A stretch of DNA of 64,000 bases from Escherichia phage vB-EcoP-XT73. The position numbers and the translations under genes were made by a program. The stretch is taken from sequence record OR757436.1; one strand, 5' to 3'. Below, piece by piece: positions 29,165-63,908 of the stretch; within the stretch, counting starts at the first letter, position 1, and the number at the start of each line of letters is the position of its first letter. Under the pieces are notes generated by a model. It saw nothing but the letters and a program-made list of their open reading frames with translations, was not told where the DNA came from and made no database searches.

Positions 29165-30196
29165 TTATAGTCCAGCAAAAACCTTAGCTGCATTCATTAC
29201 AGGAACTGATAGATTAACTACAGTGTCAGCTCCTAGGTCGTAATTTTGATCCCACTGAAATAGGTATCTTCCATAGCCAGTTCCTATGCTAGAGCCGCTC
29301 ATTGTGTGAGATCTCATTTGCTGATATCTCCATCCACTACCTTGGCCTTTTATTGCACCTATTCCAGAAGTAAGAGGTATCATAGGATACGACATTCCAG
29401 TGTTACCACCACCTGAACCTATAAAAGTATCTACAGTGAAAGGTGTTCTGTTAGTAGAGAAGACGCACTGAGTGGTGCCCGGAGAGTAGATATTCAAACC
29501 CCCGTTATGCTCAGGAACGCCAGCTCCGTTGCAGAATACGGCAATCCTCACAAAGACGGACCCTCCTTCATTAGTGTTTCCGTTGACATAAGGCCTATTC
29601 TGATAGACTCGAACAATCCTGTCATCAGATGTGTAAGATAAACCAACCCCTCCATCAGACCAATTAGCAAATACAACAGCATTGGTCATATTGAACCCAC
29701 CAATATTTGGTATCTGAAGGGAGTTGTTTATGGTCCCCTGCCAAGCCCAAATACATTGACCAACAACCCCACTATCCGATATTGAGAAGTAGTCTGCTGT
29801 ATTGGAAAAGGTAATTCCATAATTCCTATCCGCTCTAGGCCATATTTGGTATACGTTGAACCCACAGTCGAACAGAGGGTTACTACCTGGGTTCTGATTC
29901 AGAGTGACTCTAAAAGAGGAGTTGTTTTCTACGTAGATATCATTCACACAATAAACATCAGGAACTAGGTTAGGAGGGACTTCCCATTGCCAGCATAAAG
30001 AACCAGTAGGAACAATAACTATCTGACCACTGCCATCCCACCCACTAATAGGGAAAGACCTCCCTGCCCCGTTAAAGTTAAAACTTCCTCTTATACTATT
30101 CTTGAACTGAGGGAAAGTACTTCCACTGTCTATGAAAAGAGGGGCTGGTGTAGCTGGTCCCGGCCCTACCGGTTGTGTCCAAATTCCATATGCCAT
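29165..30196 (-). CDS. virion structural protein
   Basis: 343 aa, Gly/Ser/Asn-rich beta-type composition. Confidence 0.4.
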   Translation of the reverse strand: MAYGIWTQPVGPGPATPAPLFIDSGSTFPQFKNSIRGSFNFNGAGRSFPISGWDGSGQIVIVPTGSLCWQWEVPPNLVPDVYCVNDIYVENNSSFRVTLNQNPGSNPLFDCGFNVYQIWPRADRNYGITFSNTADYFSISDSGVVGQCIWAWQGTINNSLQIPNIGGFNMTNAVVFANWSDGGVGLSYTSDDRIVRVYQNRPYVNGNTNEGGSVFVRIAVFCNGAGVPEHNGGLNIYSPGTTQCVFSTNRTPFTVDTFIGSGGGNTGMSYPMIPLTSGIGAIKGQGSGWRYQQMRSHTMSGSSIGTGYGRYLFQWDQNYDLGADTVVNLSVPVMNAAKVFAGL

Positions 30197-30197
30197 A

Positions 30198-31166
30198 TCA
30201 CCAACTCCCTATCCTAATTCTCAGAGCACCACTTCCATCATAGAAGTCTATCCTGTTTCCATTCATCCATAATTGTGCCCCACCTGTGCCACCCATAACG
30301 AAATCACCTCCAACAGTAAACCTCCAGTTAGTACCTGACATTGTACCAGCAGTTATTTTATCAGCAGACAAACTTTGAATCTGAGCATTGGTGATTGATA
30401 CGTTGGTAATCTGCCCCCACTCAATAGTAGCAGTTGCAATTTGAGCAGAGGTGATAACTACGTTAGTGATATCAGCAAACTCCATAACAGCTCTACCGTT
30501 CTCAACCCTGAATGGGGTACTTCCTGACGTGCCATCAGATACCACAAACTTATCAGCTGTTACTTGGAACTGGCTTATAGTGCCATTGTTTGTTAGCTTT
30601 ACCCCTGCTGTCTTGCCGTTTACTGTGGAATTAACACCCCAAGTAGCCTCATACTCGGTGAGCTTCATATATTGAGATGCACTTCCTGTGCCATTAGTGA
30701 GATCAGATTGAATAAGAGCTATCTCTTGTCCTTGGTCGTTAACAATCCCTTCGACAGTTTGGATAGATGCTGTATTTCCTTCTATAGACGTTTTGATACC
30801 GGACACAGTTGAATCCAGCTTGACAGGAGGACTAACAGAATTATCCCAAATGTCATCAGTGGATAGATTACCCATTTGTGTTATGATATCTGCAATGGCA
30901 GTCTCAATCTCTGTAGTAACACGGTTCTCTAGTTCATCGAATTGTAAATTCATAGCATGAAGAGCTTTAATACGAACATCAATCTCCTCATGGATTTCAT
31001 CTATAGCTTGGAACATTTGATTAGTTGCAGTACTGATATTCTGGAGTTCATCATATATTGCAACGTTGTTAGTTTCTACACTCTCAGAGGTGTTTAGAAA
31101 ACCCACACTATAAGGTTGTGTTGTGTTGTTTCTTCCGGTATTCTTACGAAAGCCACCAGCACCCAT
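30198..31166 (-). CDS. virion structural protein (tail fibre-like)
   Basis: 322 aa; helical N-terminus then a T/S/G-rich region with repeated ITNV/ITSAQI segments. Confidence 0.4.
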   Translation of the reverse strand: MGAGGFRKNTGRNNTTQPYSVGFLNTSESVETNNVAIYDELQNISTATNQMFQAIDEIHEEIDVRIKALHAMNLQFDELENRVTTEIETAIADIITQMGNLSTDDIWDNSVSPPVKLDSTVSGIKTSIEGNTASIQTVEGIVNDQGQEIALIQSDLTNGTGSASQYMKLTEYEATWGVNSTVNGKTAGVKLTNNGTISQFQVTADKFVVSDGTSGSTPFRVENGRAVMEFADITNVVITSAQIATATIEWGQITNVSITNAQIQSLSADKITAGTMSGTNWRFTVGGDFVMGGTGGAQLWMNGNRIDFYDGSGALRIRIGSW

Positions 31167-49554: not shown

Positions 49555-50046
49555 ATGGCTAAAGTAATGCAGGTAGTTAATCTGGCAAGCTATGTACTGG
49601 TTGCCGCGATCGGTGTTAGTGCACTGGTAACATCTCTTTCTGATAAGGCTATCGCTAGTCCAGCTCCTGCAACTAATGCCGCTGATGTTTTCGCTAGTTC
49701 CATTAATAAAGGTTGGATGATTTGCAACGGTGCGGATAGTGACGGCAATACCATCGCGTTAAAGATGAAATTTAGTAACGTAACAAATGAAGGCGTTCTC
49801 TTTCAATCTAAGACGTTGGATGGTCAGCCTAACAGTGATCTGGTACTCAAGCGTGCTGATAATGATGCGGATATGGTGACGTATGGCACTGTACAACGTT
49901 ACGAAGACGTTAAAGCTGTAACCAACCTAGTGAGTTATGGTCCGGTCAATGAGTCGATGATTGCTACCACTGTTTACAATAACGCTGATAACGCTGTTTA
50001 TACTATTCACGTTAATCTGTCAAATTGTATTAAAGCTAGCAAATGA
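49555..50046 (+). CDS. secreted/periplasmic protein (signal-peptide-like N-terminus)
   Basis: MAKVMQVVNLASYVLVAAIGVSALVTSLS; RBS GAGGA. Confidence 0.5.
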   Translation: MAKVMQVVNLASYVLVAAIGVSALVTSLSDKAIASPAPATNAADVFASSINKGWMICNGADSDGNTIALKMKFSNVTNEGVLFQSKTLDGQPNSDLVLKRADNDADMVTYGTVQRYEDVKAVTNLVSYGPVNESMIATTVYNNADNAVYTIHVNLSNCIKASK

Positions 50047-50150
50047 AAAAATTAATTTGCAATACTAGCTCAACCTTGCTATCTTTAGCTTTCACCGCGA
50101 TTGCTACGGCAATAGCATATTATGTTCTTGTTGTTTTGGGAGTGTAGGTT

Positions 50151-50402
50151 ATGGCTATCAAAGAAGTTAAATTGTCTAACGGTTTTTCCTGTTTCGTCGG
50201 TCGTTCTGAAATCATGTTTAATACACTTGATGGTCAGATAACTTTTCCTATCGTCACTTTTTGCAAGATGGAATATCAGCCTCTTAAGGACTGGTTAGCC
50301 TTTGCTAATTTCGAAATTAACCGCGATGACTTCCGCTCAATCTATATTGACGGTGATTTGACTCTGGCTAACCTGCTTAGTGAAGGATTAATACATGGCT
50401 AA
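50151..50402 (+). CDS. hypothetical protein
   Basis: 83-aa ORF. Confidence 0.4.
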   Translation: MAIKEVKLSNGFSCFVGRSEIMFNTLDGQITFPIVTFCKMEYQPLKDWLAFANFEINRDDFRSIYIDGDLTLANLLSEGLIHG

Positions 50403-50649
50403 AGAGCATAGCTTTACTATCCCGACTTACAATTACGGTGAGATTGATTTCTCATATACGGATAACTCTGACAAGTGTCTAATCTTGTTTGTTGTCGGTG
50501 ACAATATTAATGCGATCGACTTCCCTGCGGTCGCTCTAATCATGGATGGCGTTAAAGCAGGCCATTATCTGGCGCAACGTGGGATTCTTCTGTCGCTGGA
50601 AGAAATCGAACTACTTAGAGTAGCACTATTTAAAGGTAAAGGCAACTAA
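50395..50649 (+). CDS. hypothetical protein
   Basis: 84-aa ORF overlapping the upstream stop. Confidence 0.4.
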   Translation: MAKEHSFTIPTYNYGEIDFSYTDNSDKCLILFVVGDNINAIDFPAVALIMDGVKAGHYLAQRGILLSLEEIELLRVALFKGKGN

Positions 50650-50848
50650 TGATCCATGATTATTTTTGGCGGTGCTTGTTCGTTGTTACAGTGGCGTTAT
50701 TCGTAGCTGATATGCTTTATTCTTACATTCTATAGAGTCCGGTTGTGTTATTTCTGTTTTTGTTTGTCGTTGGCTTCATTTCTTTAAATTATTTATTGAT
50801 TGTTGCCGCTTTCGATATTCTTAAACTCATTACTAAAGGTTAACTATT

Positions 50849-51214
50849 ATGTGGTTTATTAAATTCGTCGTTAAAACGGTTGTAGGCTTTTTTCTGGTTG
50901 TTCTTCTGTTGGGTGTCCTGCTATCAGCTATGGGTAGCGTTAAGGCTGCAACATTTTCCCCTGCTACGGTTGACGGCTTGCAATGTACCTACCTTGTAGA
51001 AAACTATTCGACTGGTAAAAAGTCACCTAAGGTTATTATTTTACATGTAAATGATTTCGAGCATGTACAATCATACGCTAAGACTATTCAGCTAGTGAAT
51101 GAAACCACTGGCAAACAAATCACGGTCGATCACTTGATGCGCTCGTCGTTGACGCTCTTTGACGAGTCTATGAATGAAGTAGAATCCGGTAACGGTCAGT
51201 GTGTAAATCCTTAA
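50849..51214 (+). CDS. membrane-anchored or secreted protein
   Basis: N-terminal hydrophobic stretch VVGFFLVVLLLGVLLSAMGSVKA. Confidence 0.45.
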   Translation: MWFIKFVVKTVVGFFLVVLLLGVLLSAMGSVKAATFSPATVDGLQCTYLVENYSTGKKSPKVIILHVNDFEHVQSYAKTIQLVNETTGKQITVDHLMRSSLTLFDESMNEVESGNGQCVNP

Positions 51215-51293
51215 TCCTTGTGGGCCTGTTCTTTTTGACCATTGTCGGTGCAATGGGCCTTTTCTATGCTGTCATAATGTTAGGAGTTTAAAA

Positions 51294-51617
51294 ATGAAGA
51301 AGTTAATCGTTGGCTTGGCTGTTGGTTTGTCTTTGTTTGCTGGTAGTGCTAGCGCATACATGAAATGCGGAAGCATTGGAGTGGTCACAGCCTCTAATGG
51401 TGCTAAAAATCTCACCGCTTTAGGTAAGACTTGGTCCGCTACTGAGGTTATCACTTTAGAAAATGGCTTAAAGGCTGTAATCTATGATAACCGGAAAGAT
51501 GGTTCAATTCTTCGGGTTGTTCCTACGGAAGATGGGAAAACGGTTGCCATTATCTATTATCGAGATGCGGAATCTAATCTTAATGGTAATCCTGTGCTTT
51601 CCGGTATGTGCCGATAG
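51294..51617 (+). CDS. secreted protein with Sec-type signal peptide
   Basis: MKKLIVGLAVGLSLFAGSASA followed by a hydrophilic mature region. Confidence 0.5.
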   Translation: MKKLIVGLAVGLSLFAGSASAYMKCGSIGVVTASNGAKNLTALGKTWSATEVITLENGLKAVIYDNRKDGSILRVVPTEDGKTVAIIYYRDAESNLNGNPVLSGMCR

Positions 51618-51954
51618 TCTATCTGATGCTCTAAATCCTTCCTATAAGCCTCCTAGTGAGGCTTTTCTCATTTCTAAGGTGATTGTATTCCTTACCCTCC
51701 TTTAGCTCATTGTGATGCGTCTGAGAGCGTCAAATAGTGCTTTACAAGCCTGTTTTAGTATGTTATTCGCGTGCGCGTTCCTTTACCTACTCCTCTACGA
51801 AAAAGTTTAAAATAATTTGCTTTGCCCTATTGCATTACTCACTGGTTGGCGTATACTTCAATTCATCGGGTACGATGAAAAACATACAAGGCAAGAAATT
51901 GCCCCGCTCTTTAAAAATCAGGCTAGAAAGTGAAAAAATACTTGAAAAAAGTAT

Positions 51955-51982
51955 TTGACAACTGGAAAGCCTAACCTATAAT
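51955..51982 (+). promoter_or_regulatory. sigma70-type promoter (consensus -35 and -10)
   Basis: TTGACA, 16-nt spacer, TATAAT, preceded by A-tracts. Confidence 0.6.
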
Positions 51983-52101
51983 GAGCATAAGTCAGCGATG
52001 ACGTGAAACATCCCCGCTCTTTAAAAACTTATCATCTTGCCCTTTCGCATAGATTCAAGCGAGATAAGGGAAAAGAATAAAAGAAGATGATAAAAAAGAG
52101 G

Positions 52102-52130
52102 TTGCAAACGTGGTTAAGGTAGTTCATACT
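52102..52130 (+). promoter_or_regulatory. sigma70-type promoter candidate
   Basis: TTGCAA, 17-nt spacer, CATACT, A-rich upstream. Confidence 0.45.
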
Positions 52131-52407
52131 AACCACAAGTTAACAAAACAACGTTAACTAGTTCCCAAGTCAACGTATCGCGGGAAAGGTGGCACATAGT
52201 GCAGCGAGTAGTTCGGGAGTAGGCGCCCCGTTAATGAATAAGTAAGCCTTTAATGATGCAGTGATTAGCAGACACTATAAAAGGCTAAAAACGCTCTTTA
52301 ACAATATGGATCATAAGTTTAAGCCTTATCGCTTAATCTTCAATCAAATAAAGCTGGTTGATATATCCTCCCAATAGCGGGAACGACGAAAAAGATTAAA
52401 AAAGCGG

Positions 52408-52436
52408 TTGACAGCAAAAACATCATGGTCCATACT
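52408..52436 (+). promoter_or_regulatory. sigma70-type promoter candidate
   Basis: TTGACA, 17-nt spacer, CATACT, preceded by aaaaaagcgg. Confidence 0.5.
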
Positions 52437-53357
52437 GAGCACTCACTAAGCAAAACACCGCTTCAGTGAAAAGCGAAACAACGGCTAACAGTTGCATGAC
52501 GTGAGAAAGCACGTCGATAGATTTACCGCTCTTTAATAATTTAAACATTCCCCTATATCGGTTAAATATGTTTGATGATAATAACCATCGGAAAACATAC
52601 CAGATAAAACGGTGTAAAACTCCCTAAAATATCAGGGTAAACAGTTTTACATTCCCTTACTGGAAACGCCACCACTGATAAGCGGATTCATTGAGTACAC
52701 GCAACGGCTTAAGCTAATCGCCCACGGTTAAGGGTAGCGGCGGCCATCGCTAACACGGTGCTACAGTGAAAGAAACTAATCAGGGTAGGCAATCCCGACG
52801 AATTAACGCTCAATTGAGAGCGGCGGGGAGTGGTTAAAAAGTGGCAAATTGCTATTTAACAATAAGGTTTAATGCGAACGTTTACGATGTGAACGGCTTG
52901 AGATTCATCACAAGATGAAAGTACATAGCCGGTTTATGTAGTAAACCTGCCGAAAGATATAAAACGCCGGAATACTAGGCGGTTAGTGACTTTTTCGCAA
53001 TAGTATCCCGTAGTGGGCGATGACTAGCGAAAGAGAGCTGATATAAAAGGATAAGCGGGAGCGAAAGCAAAGTAAACGATATTGCCGACGGTTACAGTAA
53101 TGTAATTAAATAGAGTCGGACGCATAGCCTTATTGTGATGATTGATCATCGCTATCAGGTCGGCTTCGTTTATAGCGACTAATTAAAGATACCAGATGAA
53201 ACATCACGGATAAGGGGGCGGCAAGGTTAACTCCTGACAAGACCGCCCCGCTTATCAATAATTACTTAACAATGAGTGATTATCGATAAGTCAATGGCGA
53301 CTTAAAAAGCTCATAGAGAGCGGGGCATAGTGCCCTTACAATTGAAAGGTGAATATC

Positions 53358-54257
53358 ATGGCTAAAATTTTTAATCTGGTAAAAGAATCTGGTTTTAACG
53401 CACTGGCTAACAACATTCGTAGCAACAACGCGGCGATTAAACAAGATGTTTCTAATTTTCTGTTAGGGCACTTGCAGCACTTCCGCAGTAACGGCAAGAA
53501 GTTAGATGTATTGCAGTCGGCGGTTGATTTTCTGTTAACCGAACGTTTCCGCGATATGGATGTGATCGCCACTGCAATTACTTTCTTAACCCCAATCAAG
53601 TTTAACACCGATGCGGCAAATGGTCGTAAGAAGTGGATTAATCTGGAAGGTGAAGCGAAAGCGAAAGAAGATGCGAAAGAAGCGCAAATTAAGGCCAAAA
53701 TGGAACAAAACCGTGCTCGCTGGTCAAATGCTTTCGAAAATTTTGCTTTAGGCCGTGAAATTGAAGTCGATAACCCTAACTTCTACAAGGGTTGCAATGA
53801 CAACGTGGCGGCACACCTGCAAATCCCGGCGAAAAACAAGGAAGATTTTAATCAGGATATTTACGCTTTAGTTGAACGCTTGAATGCAATCCGTATCGAA
53901 GCCAAATTGTTGGCTGATGAGCGCAATGGCGCTACCAGTGATAATACTATTGCCTTGAGTGAAGAAGTGGGGAAAGTTAAAAAGTCCTTTGATTCACTCA
54001 TCAAGAAAGTCACGGCCTCAACGGTAGCGATCTCGGATGATTATCTGATGAACGCATCAAGCAAGGAATTAGGATCACTCGATTCATACGCTGATGAAAT
54101 GGAAAAGACTGTTGCAGCTATGCAGGAGAAGTTAGAAAGTCTGCGCGGTCGTATCTCTTCAACGGTTGCTACCCGTACCGAACAAGCTGCGAAAGAAGAA
54201 GAGGAAGAAGTATTGCGCAAGGCAGCTGAGATTATGGCGGCACGTCAGGCAGCATAA
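53358..54257 (+). CDS. hypothetical early protein
   Basis: First long ORF downstream of the promoter cluster; GAAAGGTG RBS before ATG 53358; charged helical sequence. Confidence 0.5.
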   Translation: MAKIFNLVKESGFNALANNIRSNNAAIKQDVSNFLLGHLQHFRSNGKKLDVLQSAVDFLLTERFRDMDVIATAITFLTPIKFNTDAANGRKKWINLEGEAKAKEDAKEAQIKAKMEQNRARWSNAFENFALGREIEVDNPNFYKGCNDNVAAHLQIPAKNKEDFNQDIYALVERLNAIRIEAKLLADERNGATSDNTIALSEEVGKVKKSFDSLIKKVTASTVAISDDYLMNASSKELGSLDSYADEMEKTVAAMQEKLESLRGRISSTVATRTEQAAKEEEEEVLRKAAEIMAARQAA

Positions 54258-54288
54258 GTAAGACAATTCTAATAAACATGAGGCGCTA

Positions 54289-54318
54289 TCTTAACGGGTA
54301 GCGCCTTTTCTTTTATCA
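54289..54318 (+). terminator. rho-independent terminator
   Basis: ggcgctatc-ttaacgg-gtagcgcc hairpin followed by ttttcttttat. Confidence 0.6.
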
Positions 54319-54359
54319 GTGCATTGATTCAGTGCATTAATCAAAGAATATAATCAAAG

Positions 54360-54587
54360 GTGACGATCATGTTAATTACGCATACCACGATTTATCGGAA
54401 TCTTGTCAACGGTCAACATTACCGACTATCTAAAAAGTATGGCGTTGAATGTAAATGTGCTATTACCGGTGAATGGTATCCGTCGCCAATGAAGATTGAA
54501 ACGTTGGAACGCGAAGCGATCAGCTATATTATCACGCAAGAAACAACGTTAGGCCGTATCTTAAGAAAGCTGGGATTAAGAAAATGA
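54360..54587 (+). CDS. hypothetical protein
   Basis: 75-aa ORF. Confidence 0.4.
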   Translation: MTIMLITHTTIYRNLVNGQHYRLSKKYGVECKCAITGEWYPSPMKIETLEREAISYIITQETTLGRILRKLGLRK

Positions 54588-54808
54588 TATTCAGTAGCAA
54601 TTTTGGCAAGTGTCCTATTTGTGAGAAACATCGCAGCACGGGAAACCATCGCAAATGTAGTAAGATATTACAGCGCCAACGTGATAACAAACATTGGGAT
54701 ACTGTACACACCAACCAACGTAAGGAAGAAGTTAGAAAAATGGCTGTTAAAGCGTCATTTGCTCAATCCACCCGTATTGAACACATTCAAAGGTATCAAG
54801 CATTATGA
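54584..54808 (+). CDS. small basic Cys/His-containing protein
   Basis: FGKCPICEKHRSTGNHRKCSK; an overlapping alternative frame (54603..54815) also exists. Confidence 0.35.
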   Translation: MIFSSNFGKCPICEKHRSTGNHRKCSKILQRQRDNKHWDTVHTNQRKEEVRKMAVKASFAQSTRIEHIQRYQAL

Positions 54809-55014
54809 TCACTAACATCTCAGAATTTAAGAAGGCTCCTTCCCGACTGTTAGGCCGTCGTGTTGTATATCTTTATAGCAACAAAGGTAAATGTACAACC
54901 GGACGAATTACAACGGTGAGTAGTGCTAACAAGAAGCTGTTAAAGTTATGCGTGGCTATGGATGATGGTACAATCCTGCTACGCAGTTGGAAATCGTTTA
55001 GTTTACTTGATTAA
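54805..55014 (+). CDS. hypothetical protein
   Basis: 69-aa ORF. Confidence 0.4.
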   Translation: MITNISEFKKAPSRLLGRRVVYLYSNKGKCTTGRITTVSSANKKLLKLCVAMDDGTILLRSWKSFSLLD

Positions 55015-55083
55015 GTTGTTTGTTCAAGCCTATCCCCTTGATGGGCTTGCCCGATATAACTTATCACTGAAAGGAATAAGATT

Positions 55084-55527
55084 GTGGCTAAATCTAAAAT
55101 CAGCATGAAGGGCGGTCGTTGTTTTGCTATCTCTGAATTAGAGAAAGAGAAACCAAAGGCAACCAATCACGTCAGTAAGCGTAGTTTAAAACGTCGTGCT
55201 GCAAAGGCTGAAGCTGAATCCCATATCCCTTCTAGTGTGGCAAAACGTGTAGGCCATCGTGTCCATCGTGCTGATGCGTTATTGTTAGCCGATCATAAAC
55301 GTTCTTTGTTAAAGAGCGGGGGAGCTAAAACAGAAGAGGAGAAGAAGTTAGAAATCTTCTGTAATGGTCGCACCCGTGGTAAACAGAAGTTTAAGGGTAG
55401 CACGAAAGACCCTCAGGCTTTTCCTAAGACAAGCCAGTGTGCGCCTGATGTTTTCTACGCAGATAGTAAACACAAATGGGGAGTTGAAAAATACATTGAC
55501 CCCATAAAAGAGGCGAGGGTAAAATGA
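55084..55527 (+). CDS. strongly basic protein (nucleic-acid-binding candidate)
   Basis: 147 aa rich in Lys/Arg/His. Confidence 0.4.
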   Translation: MAKSKISMKGGRCFAISELEKEKPKATNHVSKRSLKRRAAKAEAESHIPSSVAKRVGHRVHRADALLLADHKRSLLKSGGAKTEEEKKLEIFCNGRTRGKQKFKGSTKDPQAFPKTSQCAPDVFYADSKHKWGVEKYIDPIKEARVK

Positions 55528-55706
55528 TTTATTCAGAGATTCTAAATAAAGTCAGAGAGATGCGGAAAGGTGATGCAGTAGTTGATGTTTTGGTTCATCT
55601 GGTAGCATCCTTGCAAGAAGAAAACGATTTGCTAAAGAAGGAGATAGAATCTAGAAGTAGAGAAAGGGATAGGGAGTCATTACGGAATAGCACCCCTCTC
55701 TTTTAG
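55524..55706 (+). CDS. hypothetical protein
   Basis: 60-aa helical ORF. Confidence 0.35.
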   Translation: MIYSEILNKVREMRKGDAVVDVLVHLVASLQEENDLLKKEIESRSRERDRESLRNSTPLF

Positions 55707-55759
55707 TACTATGACGCTCTTTCTGTCACGTCGTGCCCTCTCCCCATTTGAAGCTTCCG

Positions 55760-55880
55760 CATAGCCGCCTTTGAGCGGCTTTTTGCGTTGCTATAAGTGC
55801 ATTTGCGAGTGTATTTATAGCAACGGTCATGTGTTGCTTTCAGGTTTGCCCCGGCTACGGCTGGGGCTTTTTTATGCCCG
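55760..55880 (+). terminator. two tandem hairpin terminators
   Basis: agccgcctttgagcggct + ttttt, then gccccggctacggctggggc + tttttt. Confidence 0.5.
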
Positions 55881-55922
55881 TAAAACAGGAGGTAGCAAGT
55901 TCTGATAACAACGGCCCAGCTA

Positions 55923-56312
55923 ATGTTGACATTGACTATTTATTATGAGGCAGGGAACCAGCCAACCGCATGTAAGGCTTTAGTTGCGGATACCGTAATA
56001 AATAGAATGGCTCAACGAAAACTGACCGCTGAACAGGTGATAAGACAAAAGAACCAGTTTGAGTGGATTCCGGTACTATTAAAACAGGAGAAACCTTATA
56101 AACGTTATGTAAAGCTGATTCGTGACAAGAATCCGATGACTAAGCAAGCCATTGGAGAAAGCGAGCGACTTGCTAAACGTGCCCTTAAGAAGAATTATGT
56201 TCCGCTGTATAGTGGGACTTACTTTCAGAGTAAGAGCGAAGGGGTGCCAAAATGGTATGCCAATCCTATATATTGTGGTGATTTAGTGTTCGATAATAGC
56301 TCTAGGGAATAA
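55923..56312 (+). CDS. cell-wall hydrolase, SleB/CwlJ-like domain (candidate)
   Basis: IYYEAGNQPTACKALVADTVINRMAQ...NQFEW resembles the Hydrolase_2 motif; the start may lie upstream at a non-ATG codon. Confidence 0.4.
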   Translation: MLTLTIYYEAGNQPTACKALVADTVINRMAQRKLTAEQVIRQKNQFEWIPVLLKQEKPYKRYVKLIRDKNPMTKQAIGESERLAKRALKKNYVPLYSGTYFQSKSEGVPKWYANPIYCGDLVFDNSSRE

Positions 56313-56511
56313 TCACTAGTGCCAGATTTGACAAACTAAATTCCTTTATAAACCAACCACTTAGTAAATTTATTGAAAAAGATGGTAGTATTCTGGGACT
56401 ATGAGTAATGCTCTGTATATAGACCCTTTGAAAATTTCTTAGAAAATAAGTTTACTAAATATAACTTACTTAAATAATATTACTTTTAATCTCTGATAAA
56501 GGGTAAATAAT

Positions 56512-56808
56512 ATGACTTTAGAAGTATATAAATTCCTTTTTGTAAGCTGTTTAACTATCAGCGTTATAGGATTTATTGTTCTCAGAAACAAAGCAGCAAG
56601 CTGGGAGAGAATGTATAGATCTCTAGTCCGAGTGGATGAGATGTATAATGAGAAAGTTAAAGTAACACTCAACGATCTTATTATGCAAGTTGAAGACAGA
56701 AACAAGCGTCTTCAGAATCTCAATCATGAAGTGTTGCGCCTTGCTCGTGCTAATGAAGACTTGCGAGTGGCTATTGCTAAGCAGCAGGAGATTAACAGTG
56801 AAAGTTAA
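56512..56808 (+). CDS. membrane-anchored coiled-coil protein
   Basis: N-terminal hydrophobic segment FLFVSCLTISVIGFIVL followed by a heptad-like region. Confidence 0.45.
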   Translation: MTLEVYKFLFVSCLTISVIGFIVLRNKAASWERMYRSLVRVDEMYNEKVKVTLNDLIMQVEDRNKRLQNLNHEVLRLARANEDLRVAIAKQQEINSES

Positions 56809-57031
56809 TATCAAGCCCGATCATACCACACTTCGTTTAAATAACATGAGGCCGGGTGCCCTGTTTCATTTTAAAGGCTCCCTCTATATCAGAACCGGAT
56901 TAACAACTGACTATCACGTCAATTGTGTTAACGTGGTTTCTGGAGAGCTTATTGTTATCAGCAAAAACGAAGTCTGCCAAGTGCGCAACGATCTCCACAT
57001 AACCAACATAGAGGCTAAAGATGAAGATTGA
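56800..57031 (+). CDS. small protein, paralogue family C
   Basis: GTG start overlapping the upstream stop; ...LRLNNMRPGALFHF...YHVNCVNVVSGELI fits the family pattern. The longer track ORF (56690..57031) overlaps the upstream gene and is taken as an over-extension. Confidence 0.45.
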
Positions 57032-57275
57032 TCTTAACCTTAAAGCTAAAGAATTGCGTGTGGGTGATTTGAAACTTGGCGATGTGTTCCAAGTTAAGGC
57101 AACATGTATTGATTATTACATGATCGTTCAGTTATATACACCACATGTGTCAGAGACTGATCTTCGGAATGGTTGTGTAGTTCTTAATTTAAGAACCAAT
57201 CAAGTAATGAAGCTAGATTCAAACTTACCTGTTTCAGTTATCCATGATGCAGTAATTACCAACAAAGAAGAGTAA
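57021..57275 (+). CDS. small protein, paralogue family C
   Basis: KELRVGDLKLGDVFQV...YYMIV...GCVVLNLRTNQV. Confidence 0.5.
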   Translation: MKIDLNLKAKELRVGDLKLGDVFQVKATCIDYYMIVQLYTPHVSETDLRNGCVVLNLRTNQVMKLDSNLPVSVIHDAVITNKEE

Positions 57276-57575
57276 CATCGACTTATAGCCCTTGTGTTTA
57301 TCAGAGGGCTATGTGAGGGTGTTCCTCATTAACTTATTAATTCAGGCATATGCCACACCGCTAGGGAGAGCTTGCTCGAACATCCGGTGTTAGACTAAAA
57401 CCTGTTAATTTTCGAAAGACTTTCTGATATGTAGGGGTACATATCGGTTTGGGATTCAGGAGACTTCCTAGGGGTAGGGAGTCTTCACCAGTTTGTAGAG
57501 TAGGTGGCTCTATTGTAAGAGTCATCCGCTATATCAACTGGCAATAATGCCTCCACTAACAAAGAGAGATAGGTA

Positions 57576-57719
57576 TGAAAGTATCAACCAAACGTATGAA
57601 CCGCCCTGAACGTATGGATGCAGTAGCTAACGGTGCTCTGAAACTGGAAGGCTTCTGGATTCATGCAATGTCAGCCATCCGTAACAAGCAAGGTAATTGG
57701 ACTTATGCCGGTTAAAACA
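57576..57719 (+). CDS. small basic protein (47 aa)
   Basis: AGAGAGATAGG precedes the ATG; below the ORF-track cutoff. Confidence 0.3.
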
Positions 57720-57914
57720 GCTCATGTGATAGGTATGCGAGAGATCATTCGCATTGCCTTGATGGAACACACTGATCGAAACATGCAACTAACGCAAATC
57801 TCTAAGTGTCTTAATTGCTCAAGAGATATGGCTAAGGAATTAATGTTCGCATTCCTTTATAATGCAGAAGATGGGTTTTTACAAAACCGTCTGCTTGGTT
57901 TAAAACAGAAATAA
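57705..57914 (+). CDS. hypothetical protein
   Basis: Start taken at the internal Met (MPVKTAH...) of the track ORF 57663..57914; a hairpin with T tract follows. Confidence 0.35.
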   Translation: MPVKTAHVIGMREIIRIALMEHTDRNMQLTQISKCLNCSRDMAKELMFAFLYNAEDGFLQNRLLGLKQK

Positions 57915-57999
57915 ATAAATAAAAGGCTGCCCAATCGGGTGGCCTTTGTTGTTTTAATTAAGGGACAGCTCTTACTTAAACTAACAAGAGGAAGCTCAA

Positions 58000-58176
58000 A
58001 TGTCTAAGCAAACAATCAAGAATACACAAGCTGGTTACTCTTATGTTAACTCTCCTTGCTGTGGTGCTCGTGTTAATCTGGTTAAAGAAGAGGTTCGTAT
58101 CGTTCAGCGTGGAGCTACTGTTGTTCGTTCATGCTGTGTCTGTGGTAATGACATCTTTATTAAAGGTAAAGTATGA
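58000..58176 (+). CDS. small Cys-rich protein
   Basis: About 58 aa with SPCCGARV ... CC-x-C; below the ORF-track cutoff. My hand reading of this stretch was off by one base against the ORF track, so the 3' end is approximate. Confidence 0.3.
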   Translation: MSKQTIKNTQAGYSYVNSPCCGARVNLVKEEVRIVQRGATVVRSCCVCGNDIFIKGKV

Positions 58177-58397
58177 TTATCGTCCACTCTGAACCTAAAG
58201 ATAATACTTTTGGTAGTCTACGTAATGGTGATGTATTCTCTCTAGAAATAGACGGGGATACAAAACCTCCTTTATACATGAAGGTTATGCACAGACATGC
58301 TATCTGTATAAAGAATCCTGAAACAAGATTCACCTTTGATAGAACTTGCCCTGTCAAATACTATCAAGCTACCCTAAATGTTAGGAGAGTAGGATGA
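58173..58397 (+). CDS. small protein, paralogue family C
   Basis: DNTFGSLRNGDVFSL...LYMKVMH...HAICIKNPETRF. Confidence 0.5.
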   Translation: MIIVHSEPKDNTFGSLRNGDVFSLEIDGDTKPPLYMKVMHRHAICIKNPETRFTFDRTCPVKYYQATLNVRRVG

Positions 58398-58645
58398 AAA
58401 ACTTCCAAGCTGCACCAATAACTAAAGCGATCGCAGTTAGTGATGTGATGATGACTGTTCCTCTGAACACTCGTTACATTGCAATTGACAAGATGGGTTA
58501 TGTATGGGCTTGGAAGATTAAGCCTAGCTATAACGCATTGTTTGACGAGTTTGTTTGTACTGGTACTTACAGTCCTACATTCTTGGGTTTATTTGGAGAG
58601 TTTGAAGGTCAGTATAAAATCATTACTCTCCCTGCTTGTGTTTGA
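58394..58645 (+). CDS. small protein, paralogue pair D
   Basis: RYIAIDKMGYVWAWKIKP; shares the Y-I/L-A-x-D-x-x-G-x-V-W/Y core with the next ORF. Confidence 0.45.
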   Translation: MKNFQAAPITKAIAVSDVMMTVPLNTRYIAIDKMGYVWAWKIKPSYNALFDEFVCTGTYSPTFLGLFGEFEGQYKIITLPACV

Positions 58646-58654
58646 GGTTCTGGT

Positions 58655-58886
58655 GAAGACTAAAGAGGTTAAATATTTTGGTGAAGTTATTAAAATAGGT
58701 AACTCTATAAGATATTTAGCAACTGATAGCAACGGCGAAGTGTATGGGTTTACTCATAAGCCAGAAATTCGTGGGTATGCTTGGGCACTCCCTTATGGAA
58801 CTCCATTCGAGACTGGAGGGGCTGTTTATCTTAATGATAATGGACCTCTGTTTGGGTGGAAAACATCTCTCGTTGAGGTGGTATAA
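58655..58886 (+). CDS. small protein, paralogue pair D
   Basis: RYLATDSNGEVYGFTHKPEIRGYAWALP; non-ATG start assumed just after the upstream stop. Confidence 0.35.
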
Positions 58887-58888
58887 TT

Positions 58889-59053
58889 ATGTTCAAGTGG
58901 TTTAAATATCTCTTCCATCTCCATGAGTGGGAGACAATCAAAGCGGTTAGTTTAAATACATACAATGAGTTTGGTAAACTGGAAAGTACCGGAACTCGTT
59001 ACATACTTCGATGTAAAACATGTGGTCATATCACTAAGCGGGATATGATCTAA
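58889..59053 (+). CDS. small H-E-W / C-x-x-C protein
   Basis: MFKWFKYLFHLHEWETIK...RCKTCGH; 54 aa. Confidence 0.35.
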   Translation: MFKWFKYLFHLHEWETIKAVSLNTYNEFGKLESTGTRYILRCKTCGHITKRDMI

Positions 59054-59061
59054 GAGGTGTT

Positions 59062-59271
59062 ATGTTCTTTCGTAAGAAAAAGCCCGAAGATTCTGGATGT
59101 AAACATGAGTGGGTGATCACTGAAAACTTACATATCACTCACGCTAAAGACACTCCAGTTGAAGCGAAAGAGTCTCGTGTATCTCGTGTCTGTAAACGCT
59201 GTTTGAAAATAGAACAGCATAAAGTCCCCGGTCATATAGGTCATGATGTGGCCTTGCGTATCTTCAGTTAA
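59062..59271 (+). CDS. small H-E-W / C-x-x-C protein
   Basis: ...CKHEWVITEN...VCKRCLK; paralogue of the 58889 ORF. Confidence 0.4.
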   Translation: MFFRKKKPEDSGCKHEWVITENLHITHAKDTPVEAKESRVSRVCKRCLKIEQHKVPGHIGHDVALRIFS

Positions 59272-59289
59272 ACAAATTCAGAGGTTAAT

Positions 59290-59598
59290 GTGAAACAAAA
59301 GCATTTTATCATCTCAACCTTACTACTAATGACAACCATTGGTATCATCTCTGTTAATAGTGCAGAGATTGGGGTTAAGTATCAGAGTGTTCAGCAATGC
59401 ACTCTTAAAGAGCATAGCTTAACTGGTATCAAAGAATCTCATGGTATGGTAAGAGATGGGCTTCTGTTTGTAGAAACAACTTCTGGTAATCGTGTCATGG
59501 CTACTGATGGCAAAGAAACAAAGTATGCCTACTTCCCTGATACAACAGGCTACTACACTTTTGAAGAGAAGGATTGTAAGAAGTCTTTCTCTTTATAA
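59290..59598 (+). CDS. secreted protein with signal peptide
   Basis: MKQKHFIISTLLLMTTIGIISVNSAE. Confidence 0.5.
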   Translation: MKQKHFIISTLLLMTTIGIISVNSAEIGVKYQSVQQCTLKEHSLTGIKESHGMVRDGLLFVETTSGNRVMATDGKETKYAYFPDTTGYYTFEEKDCKKSFSL

Positions 59599-59607
59599 AA
59601 GAATCAA

Positions 59608-59682
59608 GTCCCTATAGTTAAAAGGATATAACAGATTTCTTCTAAAAATCCATTCTAGGTTCGAGTCCTAGTGGGGACGCCA
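59608..59682 (+). tRNA. tRNA-Arg (anticodon TCT)
   Basis: Hand-folded cloverleaf: acceptor gtcccta/tggggac (one G-U), D stem gtta/taac with GG in the loop, anticodon stem gattt/aaatc with loop cTTCTaa, T stem ctagg/cctag with loop ttcgagt, discriminator G and encoded CCA. Confidence 0.75.
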
Positions 59683-59702
59683 AATCAAATAGGAGGTGTG
59701 TT

Positions 59703-60002
59703 ATGAGTTGGGGTGGTGTAATATCCTTAATCGGTATCTTCATCGTCTGTGTGGCCCTTACAGGCTGTGTACAGAGCCGTCCTGATGGATGGTGTGCAGT
59801 AGCAGTGGATGGTATTTGTGTATCTCGCTGGCATAAAGGTGAGAAGGTTCCTTCTGGTGAGATTGATATGCGCTGGAACGGAGCAACCTGCTCTAATGCT
59901 AACCCTTCTATCAACGAAGAGAAATCTACACCGGATAATGTTGTGATTGATACAGCGTTGTGGTGTGGTGGCTCTGTAACAACAACCGGTAAGGAGTGGT
60001 GA
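59703..60002 (+). CDS. lipoprotein
   Basis: Signal peptide ISLIGIFIVCVALTGC with lipobox L-T-G-C; six further Cys in the mature part. Confidence 0.55.
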   Translation: MSWGGVISLIGIFIVCVALTGCVQSRPDGWCAVAVDGICVSRWHKGEKVPSGEIDMRWNGATCSNANPSINEEKSTPDNVVIDTALWCGGSVTTTGKEW

Positions 60003-60624: not shown

Positions 60625-60882
60625 ATGGACGGAGAAGTGGTTTCATATATAGCCATGACTTACTTGGTAGGTTGGTGGGTTGCAGTGTTGGTGGTGACGT
60701 GGTGCTTCAAGAGAGGGAAGTTTAAAACTTTCCTACATACTCCTTGGGGGAACCCTGACGAAATTGCAATTTGGGTTGTGATCTTCTTCTGGCCTGTTAT
60801 CTTATTATTCTTTATCATCTTCCCAATCCTACTACTATTTGACACTGTATTATGTAGGCTTACTAATTTTATAGTAAAGTAA
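60625..60882 (+). CDS. small integral membrane protein
   Basis: Two or three hydrophobic segments (LVGWWVAVLVVTW ... IAIWVVIFFWPVILLFFIIFPILLLF). Confidence 0.5.
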   Translation: MDGEVVSYIAMTYLVGWWVAVLVVTWCFKRGKFKTFLHTPWGNPDEIAIWVVIFFWPVILLFFIIFPILLLFDTVLCRLTNFIVK

Positions 60883-63755: not shown

Positions 63756-63908
63756 ATGTCTAAATTAGATTTAAAACTGCTAGCAGCAGCGGTAGTGATT
63801 TGTGCACTAGCACTGGTAACGCAGAGAACATCTGGATTTATTCAGTGTTTCTTTTCTGGGCAATCCACTTATCAGTGGGTTATTGACGAGTGTAAACAAC
63901 AGGAGTAA
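63756..63908 (+). CDS. small membrane/secreted protein (50 aa)
   Basis: MSKLDLKLLAAAVVICALALVT...; GAGAGGAAAT RBS. Confidence 0.3.
   Translation: MSKLDLKLLAAAVVICALALVTQRTSGFIQCFFSGQSTYQWVIDECKQQE

What the first reader, a model, noticed from the sequence alone, without database searches (positions are those of the whole stretch)
49555..60002. Cluster of secreted, membrane and lipoprotein genes in the early-type block
At least five products carry clear signal peptides or a lipobox (49555, 50849, 51294, 59290, and 59703 with L-T-G-C). Early-expressed exported phage proteins are typical of superinfection exclusion or receptor masking.
Basis: partly seen in the sequence, partly recalled or inferred. 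Interest (0 to 1): 0.5.

Follow-up and report, generated by a model that had tools for sequence, protein, structure and literature searches.

The report
Early exported proteins; LptD-blocking phage lipoprotein
This E. coli phage makes at least five small proteins early in infection that go to the cell envelope; one belongs to a family known to block the essential outer-membrane protein LptD, and the phage also carries the matching receptor-binding gene, which suggests LptD is this phage group's unidentified entry receptor.

Summary
The window is a Kuravirus (phiEco32-like podophage, about 96% identical to vB-EcoP-XT18). All five ORFs exist, have Shine-Dalgarno sites and N-terminal export signals. 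TM-grade N-termini occur in 8 of 39 early-block ORFs and 0 of 67 elsewhere (p=2e-4).

They form two groups, not one cluster. ORFs 49555, 50849 and 51294 lie in a separate five-gene early operon. ORFs 59290 and 59703 flank tRNA-Arg.

The exclusion reading is well supported only for 59703. It belongs to Pfam PF24052 (E=6e-34) and matches the solved Rtp45 chain (PDB 9RPS_D, E=3e-13), a superinfection-exclusion lipoprotein that binds LptDE.

The same phage also encodes a homologue of the LptD-binding receptor-binding protein (29165-30196, DUF6453, E=4e-26; PDB 9RPT_C, E=7e-11). It lies directly after a tail needle that ends in the Phage_Tail_Tip domain, the same domain that ends the siphovirus tip protein thought to carry this protein. 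I found no paper linking kuraviruses to LptD.

The other four are periplasm-facing, Cys-pair-bracketed small domains with no detectable relatives of known function. One is a confident lipocalin-like barrel.

Caveat: the DUF6453 orthologue (SU10 gp19) was not detected in published virion proteomes.

The parts
49555..50046 (+). First gene of the leading early operon. 163-aa protein with an N-terminal signal-anchor or signal peptide and a periplasmic eight-stranded lipocalin-like beta-barrel. Invariant C57 and C158 lie in the first and last strands. Orthologue of the C-terminal part of phiEco32 gp128.
   Evidence: signal, RBS; short versus long form; invariant Cys; AF2 pLDDT 85-91 for residues 40-160; generic barrel only; 93 phage records; dN/dS 0.13-0.19.
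50849..51214 (+). 121-aa near-core Gordonclarkvirinae protein. Very hydrophobic N-terminal helix (residues 2-28), a conserved GSVKA|AT site and a beta-rich domain bracketed by invariant C46 and C118. Orthologue of phiEco32 gp125, which is mislabelled 'terminase'.
   Evidence: PHROG 13168, whole-length 121-aa family; 86 records; alignment; AF2 poor apart from the TM helix; dN/dS 0.07-0.09.
51294..51617 (+). 107-aa rare accessory secreted protein. Textbook Sec signal MKKLIVGLAVGLSLFAGSASA|Y. Invariant C25 and C106 near the two ends of the mature protein. Inserted before the operon terminator.
   Evidence: only XT18 and XT32 in 50,697 phage records; 3 relatives in 5.8 billion proteins; signal and Cys invariant; same gene order in divergent contigs; dN/dS 0.26-0.28.
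51646..51664 (+). Terminator-like hairpin closing the leading early operon (49555-51617).
   Evidence: It matches the 'putative terminator downstream of CDS121' described for SU10 and phiEco32.
51955..51982 (+). Perfect sigma-70 consensus promoter (TTGACA-16-TATAAT) in the 1.7 kb ORF-free spacer. It is one of the early promoters that head the rest of the early block, which includes 59290 and 59703.
   Evidence: [quoted passage not shown] Intervening terminator-like sites at 54280, 55848 and 57922 make read-through to 59.3 kb uncertain.
59290..59598 (+). 102-aa orphan secreted protein. GTG start, signal MKQKHFIISTLLLMTTIGIISVNSA|E, Cys37 and Cys96. A sporadic accessory gene; Bas91 has a homing endonuclease at this position.
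   Evidence: 11 phage records, all at least 95% identical; only its own cluster among 1.84 billion representatives; PHROG 23590, unknown function; 6.
59608..59682 (+). tRNA-Arg (anticodon TCT), lying between the two exported-protein genes.
59703..60002 (+). 99-aa outer-membrane lipoprotein of the Rtp45 / PF24052 superinfection-exclusion family. Lipobox LTGC with Cys22 and +2 Val. Conserved RPDGWC...G[IV]CV disulfide pair (C31/C39), VPxGE[IV]D[MV]R hairpin region and C-terminal GGSV..GKEW. Kuravirus-specific insertion of about 25-35 aa with C63 and C88. Orthologue of phiEco32 gp106.
   Evidence: PF24052, E=5.6e-34, 116 bits versus cut-off 27; 9rps_D, E=2.6e-13; full-length alignment; 383 phage records, 91 at 60% identity or more; 29; dN/dS 0.36-0.39.
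29165..30196 (-). 343-aa homologue of the LptD-binding receptor-binding protein of small siphoviruses (Rtp44 / RBP-Oekolampad; Pfam DUF6453). Orthologue of SU10 gp19, labelled 'membrane protein'. No export signal. Proposed cognate partner of the 59703 lipoprotein.
   Evidence: tblastn and phmmer; 9rpt_C/9rpw/9rqi, E=6.7e-11; PF20051, E=4.3e-26, 92 bits versus cut-off 25; 85; 91 (323 records, 91 at 60% identity or more); 96; 109 (dN/dS 0.04). Against: not detected in SU10 virions.
30198..31166 (-). Tail needle (SU10 gp18 orthologue). Its C-terminal domain is Pfam Phage_Tail_Tip, the same domain that ends the siphovirus J-like tip proteins encoded next to Rtp44-type receptor-binding proteins.
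   Evidence: needle E=9e-22; ACG-M12 J E=8e-37; HK578 J E=6e-40; T1 J E=4e-49; BLASTP runs to the C-terminus, E=5e-7.
56512..56808 (+). Additional early membrane protein. 98 aa, N-terminal TM segment plus a coiled coil. Orthologue of phiEco32 gp116, mislabelled 'DNA helicase'.
60625..60882 (+). Additional early integral membrane protein. 85 aa, three predicted TM segments, no family match.
63756..63908 (+). Additional early small membrane protein. 50 aa with an N-terminal TM segment. PHROG 13048, unknown function.

Best explanation
The early arm of this kuravirus, transcribed by host sigma-70, encodes a set of small proteins sent to the cell envelope.

Shown:
- Five ORFs carry export signals, and four of them have a Cys pair bracketing the mature domain; the pairs are invariant in the three families that could be aligned, which is a periplasmic disulfide signature.
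- Three of them (49555, 50849, 51294) sit in a separate five-gene early operon.
- ORF 59703 is a bona fide member of the Rtp45 / PF24052 lipoprotein family.
- The same genome encodes a DUF6453 homologue of the LptD-binding receptor-binding protein (RBP) directly downstream of a tail needle that ends in a Phage_Tail_Tip domain.

Inferred mechanism for the lipoprotein:
1. It is made early, lipidated at Cys22 and sorted by Lol to the inner leaflet of the outer membrane (+2 Val).
2. Like Rtp45, it docks on the periplasmic face of LptDE, pushes its conserved hairpin up the LptD lumen and displaces extracellular loop 4.
3. LptD-directed RBPs then cannot bind.

Because the phage has the matching RBP type, the most likely purpose is self-exclusion and protection of progeny from LptD-bearing debris. 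It would also exclude LptD-dependent siphophages. This implies that LptD is the terminal receptor used by the kuravirus needle tip.

The other four exported proteins act in the periplasm or at the outer face of the inner membrane on unknown targets. The most likely roles are envelope-level exclusion of incoming phage DNA or ejection proteins, or remodelling of the host envelope. That part is inference by analogy only.
For: Export signals and their enrichment. Conserved signals and Cys pairs. Purifying selection. Early class and operon structure.

Lipoprotein: PF24052 E=5.6e-34. It matches 9rps_D at E=2.6e-13, including both disulfide cysteines. Homology runs the full length. It is 41% identical to Rtp45 over the aligned part, while the accepted functional equivalent SE-Oeko is 35% identical. 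The Rtp45 mechanism is structurally solved.

Cognate module: DUF6453 protein at 29165-30196. Its dN/dS is 0.04. It lies immediately after a needle that ends in the Phage_Tail_Tip domain, the same domain that ends the siphovirus J proteins.

Specificity control: FhuA-targeting T1 has the tip domain but no DUF6453 and no above-threshold PF24052.

Same phage groups carry both families, with 91 records at 60% identity or more for each. In siphoviruses this module matches LptD dependence 'without exception'. The kuravirus terminal receptor is unidentified. In contig L007 the lipoprotein gene sits inside the leading exported-protein cluster.
Against: - SU10 gp19 (the DUF6453 orthologue) was not among 34 proteins detected by shotgun MS of SU10 particles, although gp16-18 and gp20-24 all were. 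It is never mentioned in the SU10 cryo-EM paper or the supplement text held here.
- Kuraviruses are reported to depend on O-antigen, with short fibres presumed to bind LPS core.
- The lipoprotein and RBP genes are about 30 kb apart, not adjacent as in siphoviruses.
- The lipoprotein's n-region has no basic residue, and it carries an insertion absent from Rtp45. The RBP homologue is only about 25% identical to the siphovirus RBPs, so the target could have drifted.
- No signal-peptide predictor was available.
- Nothing ties the other four proteins to exclusion.
Confidence: 0.6

Rival explanations
1. Heterotypic exclusion only. Kuraviruses do not use LptD. The lipoprotein blocks competing LptD-dependent siphophages (Dhillonvirus, Rtp-like) that infect the same O-antigen-bearing hosts. 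gp19 has another, non-receptor role.
For: gp19 was not detected in SU10 virions. Kuravirus infection is explained so far by O-antigen plus presumed LPS core. O16-dependent Dhillonvirus isolates Bas83-85 are predicted to target LptD and so share hosts. Klebsiella Webervirus records also carry the lipoprotein gene away from the tail locus.
Against: It leaves unexplained why a full-length DUF6453 gene is kept under very strong constraint (dN/dS 0.04) directly after a needle carrying the cognate docking domain, in about 91 genomes. The characterised exclusion lipoproteins (Llp, Cor, Rtp45) block receptors that are known or predicted to be used by the encoding phage.
Confidence: 0.25
2. Host-takeover reading. 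The lipoprotein's main role is to plug LptDE and stop LPS and O-antigen export, as outer-membrane remodelling or to deplete the phage's own glycan receptor. Receptor masking would be incidental.
For: The Rtp45 hairpin occupies the LptD lumen, and LptM is displaced to the periplasm. Kuraviruses use O-antigen as primary receptor.
Against: LPS already on the surface would not be removed within a roughly 45-65 min infection (timing). The PNAS paper reports co-overexpression of Rtp45 with LptDE and mentions no toxicity. The presence of the RBP homologue points to receptor logic.
Confidence: 0.1
3. The four non-lipoprotein exported proteins are not exclusion factors. They serve other envelope functions, such as inhibiting host periplasmic enzymes or envelope-stress sensors, countering membrane-bound defence systems, or controlling lysis timing.
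For: They show no similarity to any known exclusion protein (Sp, Imm, Sim, SieA, Cor, Llp) in PHROG, Pfam or PDB. The lipocalin-like barrel of 49555 is a common scaffold for binding or inhibitor proteins. The early block also holds a SleB-type cell-wall hydrolase next to a TM plus coiled-coil protein.
Against: There is no positive evidence for any specific alternative. PADLOC and NCBIfam are empty. The true holin, endolysin and spanin genes lie elsewhere.
Confidence: 0.4
4. Artefact. The hydrophobic N-termini are chance features of spurious or mis-started ORFs.
For: 59703 overlaps a 124-aa antisense ORF. PHROG 23590 members start at Met14 of 59290. 49555 is annotated as a 290-aa ORF in phiEco32.
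Against: Family matches, RBS sites and conserved signals. dN/dS well below 1. Significant enrichment. Most public callers use the same starts.
Confidence: 0.02

Closest known systems
Rtp45 of phage Rtp (and SE-Oeko of Oekolampad): LptDE-binding superinfection-exclusion lipoproteins, Pfam PF24052, PDB 9RPS
   Same: Lipobox and outer-membrane sorting signal, the RPDGWC...GxCV disulfide pair, the hairpin-region motif VPxGE[IV]D[MV]R and the C-terminal GGSV..GKEW. The match is 41% identical over the aligned part, at E=2.6e-13. The encoding phage also carries a DUF6453 receptor-binding protein.
   Different: The host is a podovirus, not a small siphovirus. The gene lies in the early arm about 30 kb from the RBP gene rather than adjacent to it. 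It has an insertion of about 25-35 aa with two extra cysteines, and no basic residue in the n-region. Binding and the exclusion phenotype are untested.
Small-siphovirus RBP locus (gpJ-like tip protein, then Rtp44-type RBP, then cognate exclusion lipoprotein; Maffei 2021)
   Same: All three components are present: a Phage_Tail_Tip C-terminal domain, a DUF6453 protein encoded directly downstream, and a PF24052 lipoprotein.
   Different: The tip domain sits on a P22-like tail needle (SU10 gp18) rather than on a J-like central fibre. The exclusion gene is unlinked. The RBP homologue has not been seen in virions.
T5 Llp and T1/phi80/N15 Cor (FhuA-blocking lipoproteins)
   Same: Same logic: a small lipoprotein, made early in infection in T5, that inactivates an outer-membrane receptor from the periplasmic side. 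This stops superinfection and the loss of progeny on debris.
   Different: Not the same family. T1 Cor scores 17.7 bits against PF24052 (cut-off 27), and Llp gives no PDB sequence match. The target is FhuA rather than LptD. Llp works by allostery, whereas Rtp45 works by physical loop displacement.
Periplasmic or inner-membrane exclusion proteins: T4 Sp and Imm, P1 Sim, P22 SieA (from my own knowledge of the field)
   Same: Small exported or membrane-anchored phage proteins that act on incoming phage at the envelope. This is the kind of role the four non-lipoprotein products could have.
   Different: No detectable sequence or fold similarity. This is analogy only.

Membership tests
Rtp45 / PF24052 phage superinfection-exclusion lipoprotein (ORF 59703) | Scores above the Pfam gathering threshold for PF24052 | tested here: met
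   116.4 bits versus cut-off 27, E=5.6e-34, profile positions 1-80 of 80.
Rtp45 / PF24052 phage superinfection-exclusion lipoprotein (ORF 59703) | N-terminal lipoprotein signal with a lipobox Cys, and an outer-membrane sorting residue at +2 | tested here: met
   L-T-G-C with Cys22 and +2 Val. The G-C of the lipobox is invariant in alignment A5. Caveat: no K or R in the n-region, and LipoP was not available.
Rtp45 / PF24052 phage superinfection-exclusion lipoprotein (ORF 59703) | Significant match to the solved Rtp45 chain, including the Cys30-Cys38 disulfide pair and the hairpin region | tested here: met
   9rps_D at E=2.6e-13, query 8-66 against chain 6-65. C31 and C39 align with Cys30 and Cys38.
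Rtp45 / PF24052 phage superinfection-exclusion lipoprotein (ORF 59703) | Encoded next to the cognate RBP, downstream of the tip-protein gene | tested here: not met
   The lipoprotein is at 59.7 kb and the DUF6453 gene at 29.2-30.2 kb. Klebsiella Webervirus records likewise carry the lipoprotein gene away from the tail genes. Adjacency is typical of siphoviruses and is not part of the protein-family definition.
Rtp45 / PF24052 phage superinfection-exclusion lipoprotein (ORF 59703) | Binds LptDE and blocks infection by LptD-dependent phage | not testable with these tools
   Needs co-purification or cryo-EM and plating-efficiency assays. Structure prediction of such complexes is reported as unreliable.
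DUF6453 / Rtp44-type LptD-binding RBP (ORF 29165-30196) | Above-threshold Pfam match and a match to the solved RBP-Oekolampad chain | tested here: met
   PF20051 at 92.4 bits versus cut-off 25, E=4.3e-26, profile positions 15-289 of 291. 9rpt_C at E=6.7e-11.
DUF6453 / Rtp44-type LptD-binding RBP (ORF 29165-30196) | Encoded directly downstream of a fibre gene ending in the Phage_Tail_Tip domain | tested here: met
   The needle gene 30198-31166 ends 2 nt upstream, with PF09327 at E=9e-22. The siphovirus J proteins have the same domain.
DUF6453 / Rtp44-type LptD-binding RBP (ORF 29165-30196) | Present in the virion and binds LptD | not testable with these tools
   Published SU10 proteomics did not detect gp19. 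This is literature evidence against, or a sign of very low copy number.
Sec / signal-peptidase I secreted proteins (49555, 50849, 51294, 59290) | Basic n-region, h-region of about 7-15 residues, and small residues at -3 and -1 | tested here: inconclusive
   Clearly met for 51294 (ASA|Y at 21) and 59290 (NSA|E at 24). For 49555 and 50849 the h-regions are 20-22 residues with sites at 33-34, so a signal-anchor is equally likely. These are heuristics only; SignalP was not available.
Two-component spanin, o-spanin (ORF 59703) | Lipoprotein gene embedded in or adjacent to the i-spanin gene in the lysis cassette | tested here: not met
   The Rz-like i-spanin is at 16199-16573 (PHROG 1152, E=1e-37). 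Holin and endolysin lie in the late block by synteny with SU10 gp14 and gp15.
Cor / Llp FhuA-blocking lipoproteins (ORF 59703) | Sequence membership | tested here: not met
   No Llp chain appears in the PDB search at E up to 10. T1 Cor is itself below the PF24052 threshold.
Known anti-phage defence or exclusion families (all five ORFs) | Match to PADLOC, or to PHROG or NCBIfam exclusion models | tested here: not met
   PADLOC and NCBIfam give nothing meaningful. PHROG hits are to unknown-function or mislabelled whole-length families.

The most novel reading that the evidence does not exclude
LptD(E), the essential LPS translocon, is the terminal receptor or entry portal of Gordonclarkvirinae podoviruses. 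It would be recognised by a low-copy DUF6453 protein (SU10 gp19) docked on the Phage_Tail_Tip domain of the tail needle. The early PF24052 lipoprotein would be its cognate self-exclusion factor. On this reading the small-siphovirus RBP-plus-exclusion module has been transplanted onto a podovirus needle and split between the late and early arms. The four other exported, disulfide-bracketed early proteins would then be new families of periplasmic exclusion or envelope-takeover factors.
Probability: 0.4. Interest if true: 0.75.

Novelty: new variant of a known kind. Interest (0 to 1): 0.62.

Why it matters
Kuraviruses are common, broad-host-range, restriction-resistant E. coli phages that are often proposed for therapy. 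Their terminal receptor is unknown, and lptD is essential, so knockout screens cannot find it.

Finding both halves of the LptD-specific RBP and exclusion-lipoprotein pair in these podoviruses turns that open question into a one-plate experiment, using the existing lptD loop-deletion mutants or expression of the lipoprotein in trans. It also predicts cross-exclusion between kuraviruses and LptD-dependent siphophages, which matters when designing phage cocktails.

If confirmed, it would show that receptor modules move between siphovirus tips and podovirus needles.

The four remaining exported proteins are compact, conserved periplasmic domains with no known relatives. They are candidates for new envelope-level phage-host or phage-phage interference factors.

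Tried and rejected
- **Paralogy among the 49555, 50849 and 51294 families**, suggested by their shared layout of signal, Cys, beta-rich domain and Cys. hhalign probabilities were below 1%, so it is not supported at sequence level.
- **AF2 model of 50849.** pLDDT was 56 and only the TM helix was confident. It was not used for fold search.
- **Family and RNA libraries.** NCBIfam, PADLOC and PDB sequence searches gave nothing for the four non-lipoprotein ORFs. Rfam found only the tRNA in the block.
- **o-spanin reading of the lipoprotein.** Rejected, because the i-spanin is at 16.2 kb.
- **Record labels.** 'Terminase', 'polymerase', 'DNA helicase' and 'ABC transporter' on 80-210-aa products are inherited from mislabelled whole-length PHROGs, so I disregarded them.
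- **lptD mutation in phage-resistant APEC (PMC12057083).** The phage used also infects K-12, so it is not a kuravirus and the paper is irrelevant.
- **OzMSK / Black et al.** OzMSK is a T1-like siphophage, not a kuravirus.
- **Savalia 2008 phiEco32 proteome.** The paper is not held, so the virion status of the gp19 orthologue rests on SU10 only.
- **Co-variation of lipoprotein and gp19 alleles.** It could not be done properly. The one phage that appears divergent in both lists (phiEco32: lipoprotein 74% identical, gp19 97%) shows no strict co-variation, and the lipoprotein differences are concentrated in the insertion.

Full report
**What the window is.** The region is 95.6% identical to Escherichia phage vB-EcoP-XT18 (Gordonclarkvirinae, Kuravirus). 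About 99 phiEco32-like phages match it. The 49555 product is 100% identical to that of vB-EcoP-XT73. The layout is + strand middle genes at 1-20.1 kb, − strand structural genes at 20.2-48.8 kb, and + strand small genes from 49.5 kb onward. That last block is syntenic with phiEco32 genes 88-128 and lies within SU10 CDS 69-125, the early class transcribed by host sigma-70. Exact copies of the phage-sigma promoter TAATGTATA occur only in the middle and late parts of the window, and none lies on the + strand at 49-64 kb.

**Checking the observation.** All five ORFs start where stated and have Shine-Dalgarno-like sequences. With no SignalP available, I scored hydropathy, n-region charge, the −3/−1 rule and lipoboxes for 106 strand-consistent ORFs. 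ORFs 51294 (MKK…ASA|Y) and 59290 (MKQKH…NSA|E) have textbook Sec/SPase I signals. ORFs 49555 and 50849 have 20-22-residue h-regions with conserved AIA|S and VKA|A sites, so they may be cleaved or may stay anchored. ORF 59703 has lipobox LTGC (Cys22, +2 Val). TM-grade N-termini occur in 8 of 39 early-block ORFs and 0 of 67 elsewhere (Fisher p=2e-4; p=0.006 for the five alone). The genes are real. Four of the five match conserved families. dN/dS is 0.07-0.39 for the four that have divergent orthologues. Signals are conserved in orthologues. Invariant cysteine pairs bracket the mature domains of 49555 (C57/C158), 50849 (C46/C118) and 51294 (C25/C106), and 59290 has C37/C96. That is the pattern of DsbA-oxidised periplasmic domains.

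**Anatomy.** The five ORFs are not one cluster. ORFs 49555, 50849 and 51294 lie with two non-exported genes (50151, 50395) in a short unit that ends at a terminator-like hairpin at 51646-51664. [quoted passage not shown] The 1.7 kb ORF-free spacer (51620-53348) contains a perfect sigma-70 consensus at 51955-51982. ORFs 59290 and 59703 flank tRNA-Arg about 6 kb further on.

**Distribution**.

| ORF | Phage records | Status |
|---|---|---|
| 49555 | 93 | near-core, Gordonclarkvirinae only |
| 50849 | 86 | near-core, Gordonclarkvirinae only |
| 59290 | 11 | sporadic; no relative outside its own cluster in 1.84 billion representatives |
| 51294 | 2 | rare; only 3 relatives in 5.8 billion proteins |
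| 59703 | 383 | widespread beyond this subfamily |

In phiEco32 and Bas91 the 49555 orthologue has an extra N-terminal domain of 128 aa. It is genuinely coding, because the differences between the two fall mostly at third codon positions. It ends in a basic stretch just before the hydrophobic segment. So the segment is an N-in/C-out anchor there and an N-terminal signal in the commoner short form. Either way the conserved domain faces the periplasm.

**The lipoprotein.** ORF 59703 is a confident member of Pfam PF24052 'Phage lipoprotein family' (E=5.6e-34). It matches chain D of PDB 9RPS at E=2.6e-13. That chain is Rtp45, the superinfection-exclusion lipoprotein of phage Rtp, solved by cryo-EM bound to LptDE(M). 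Rtp45 sits on the periplasmic face between LptE and LptM. It sends a hairpin up the LptD lumen and displaces extracellular loop 4 by up to 20 Å, so the phage RBP cannot bind (PMC12685063). Alignment with siphovirus and kuravirus relatives shows full-length homology. It covers the lipobox, RPDGWC…G[IV]CV (both disulfide cysteines), the WxxGxxVPxGE[IV]D[MV]R hairpin region and the C-terminal GGSV..GKEW. The kuravirus type adds a 25-35-aa insertion with two further conserved cysteines. It is not the o-spanin, because the Rz-like i-spanin lies at 16199-16573. In HK578 and ACG-M12 the homologue sits next to the Rtp44-type protein, between the tail-tip and fibre genes.

**Following the lead outside the stated coordinates.** Exclusion lipoproteins normally match the phage's own receptor, and kuraviruses have no known protein receptor. 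So I searched the window with the Rtp44-type RBPs. They hit the − strand ORF 29165-30196 (343 aa) over nearly its full length (tblastn E=2e-11, phmmer E=4e-12). Three independent checks agree:
- Pfam PF20051/DUF6453 at 92 bits against a cut-off of 25 (E=4.3e-26), the same family as the ACG-M12 and HK578 RBPs (E=1e-140 and 1e-123).
- The solved LptDE-bound RBP of phage Oekolampad (9RPT/9RPW/9RQI chain C) at E=6.7e-11.
- BLASTP at E=1e-13.

The gene is SU10 gp19, labelled only 'membrane protein', and its dN/dS is 0.04. It lies directly after the tail-needle gene (30198-31166). The needle's C-terminal domain is Pfam Phage_Tail_Tip (E=9e-22), the same domain that ends the J-like tip proteins of ACG-M12, HK578 and T1 (E=8e-37, 6e-40 and 4e-49).

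As a specificity control, FhuA-targeting T1 has the tip domain but no DUF6453, and its Cor is below the PF24052 threshold. The tip domain is therefore the generic docking platform, and DUF6453 plus PF24052 are the parts specific to the LptD-type locus. Maffei et al. 2021 report that these loci match receptor specificity 'without exception'. They also report that all seven siphoviruses with this module are blocked by lptD loop deletions. The two families occur in the same phage groups, each with 91 records at 60% identity or more. I found no paper linking kuraviruses with LptD or DUF6453.

**Caveat.** SU10 shotgun proteomics detected gp16, 17, 18, 20, 21, 22, 23 and 24 but not gp19. The SU10 cryo-EM paper and the supplement text held here never mention gp19. 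A single-copy tip protein could be missed, but this is real evidence against a stoichiometric virion role. The phiEco32 proteome paper was not available.

**Mechanism and rivals.** Most likely (0.6): an early envelope-directed programme whose one interpretable member is an LptDE-plugging exclusion lipoprotein paired with the phage's own LptD-type RBP module. That implies LptD is the kuravirus terminal receptor. Rivals:
- Purely heterotypic exclusion of LptD-dependent siphophages that share O-antigen-bearing hosts (0.25).
- Inhibition of LPS export as host takeover (0.1).
- Non-exclusion roles for the other four proteins (0.4; not mutually exclusive with the main explanation).
- Artefact (0.02).

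**Novelty and verdict.** The lipoprotein has been annotated 'putative phage lipoprotein' in the phiEco32 record, and its family is in Pfam, so on its own it is a new member of a known kind. What appears new is that a podovirus subfamily carries the complete LptD-type module. The module is split between late and early arms and mounted on a tail needle. Alongside it are four unassigned periplasmic protein families. I rate this a new variant of a known kind, with interest 0.62.

Noticed in passing
window 51620-53348: A 1.7 kb ORF-free spacer, also unannotated in XT18, Bas91 and phiEco32. It is as conserved against Bas91 (84-92%) as the flanking genes (88-93%). It holds a perfect sigma-70 consensus (51955-51982) and two further promoter-like sites (52408, 53234). 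The motif CGCTCTTTAAMAA occurs four times in direct orientation (51905, 52015, 52292, 52527). Five copies are found in the whole window against 0.27 expected, and an inverted partner lies at 53314-53327. There is no Rfam hit. The promoters are known from the SU10 and phiEco32 papers; the repeated motif and the long leader downstream of these promoters (about 90 nt to 1.4 kb before the first ORF at 53349) are unexplained.
   Followed up: partly
window 55923-56312 and 56512-56808: A SleB-type cell-wall hydrolase (Pfam Hydrolase_2, E=2e-7) without a signal peptide sits in the early block. It is followed by a 98-aa protein with an N-terminal TM segment and a coiled coil (mislabelled 'DNA helicase'). 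The real holin and endolysin (by synteny with SU10 gp14 and gp15) and the Rz-like spanin (16199-16573) are elsewhere, so this is a second, early peptidoglycan-hydrolase module of unknown role.
   Followed up: partly
window 49555 versus L006 15445-16317 (phiEco32 gp128) and L002 1099-1971 (Bas91_0126): The first early gene exists in two forms. One is a 290-aa form with an extra 128-aa N-terminal, presumably cytoplasmic, domain before the membrane segment. The other is a 163-aa form that starts at the membrane segment and has unrelated upstream DNA and its own RBS. The short form is the commoner one in public data. The N-terminal domain has no Pfam match.
   Followed up: partly
window 59290-59700; L002 11028-11513: The tRNA-Arg neighbourhood is a variable spot. 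The window, XT18, NJ01, ECBP2 and 172-1 carry the orphan secreted 102-aa gene. Bas91 has a homing endonuclease overlapping the tRNA start. phiEco32 has neither.
   Followed up: partly
window 49150-49240: In the divergent intergenic region, a stretch of about 160 nt is nearly invariant across the window, XT18, Bas91 and phiEco32. It includes an extended -10-like TGGTATATT (about 49183-49191) followed by the hairpin CCGTGGTCTGTCCTGCGG (49218-49235). It may be the conserved promoter and leader of the leading early operon, or a packaging or terminal-repeat element.
   Followed up: no
window 60625-60882 and 63756-63908: Two further small integral membrane proteins lie in the early block: one of 85 aa with three TM segments and no family match, and one of 50 aa with one TM segment (PHROG 13048, unknown function). 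They extend the envelope-directed theme beyond the finding's end coordinate.
   Followed up: partly
public records L001, L002, L006 (XT18, Bas91, phiEco32): There is systematic mis-annotation of small early proteins: 'terminase' (121 aa), 'polymerase' (83-87 aa), 'DNA helicase' (98 aa), 'ABC transporter' (210 aa) and 'tail protein' (44 aa). At least the first three trace to mislabelled PHROG families that cover the whole length of these small proteins.
   Followed up: yes
L007 435-764 (Logan SRR27294589 contig): In a divergent kuravirus-like contig the PF24052 lipoprotein gene lies between the gp128-like gene and an 87-aa gene homologous to window ORF 50395, at the head of the early region, rather than next to the tRNA. 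The exclusion gene therefore moves around within the early arm.
   Followed up: partly
window 5995-6171: A 58-aa ORF in the middle-gene block has a lipobox-like VSGC (Cys19) and matches an unknown-function PHROG (19504, E=1.5e-45). It is not next to the i-spanin. It may be another small lipoprotein.
   Followed up: no
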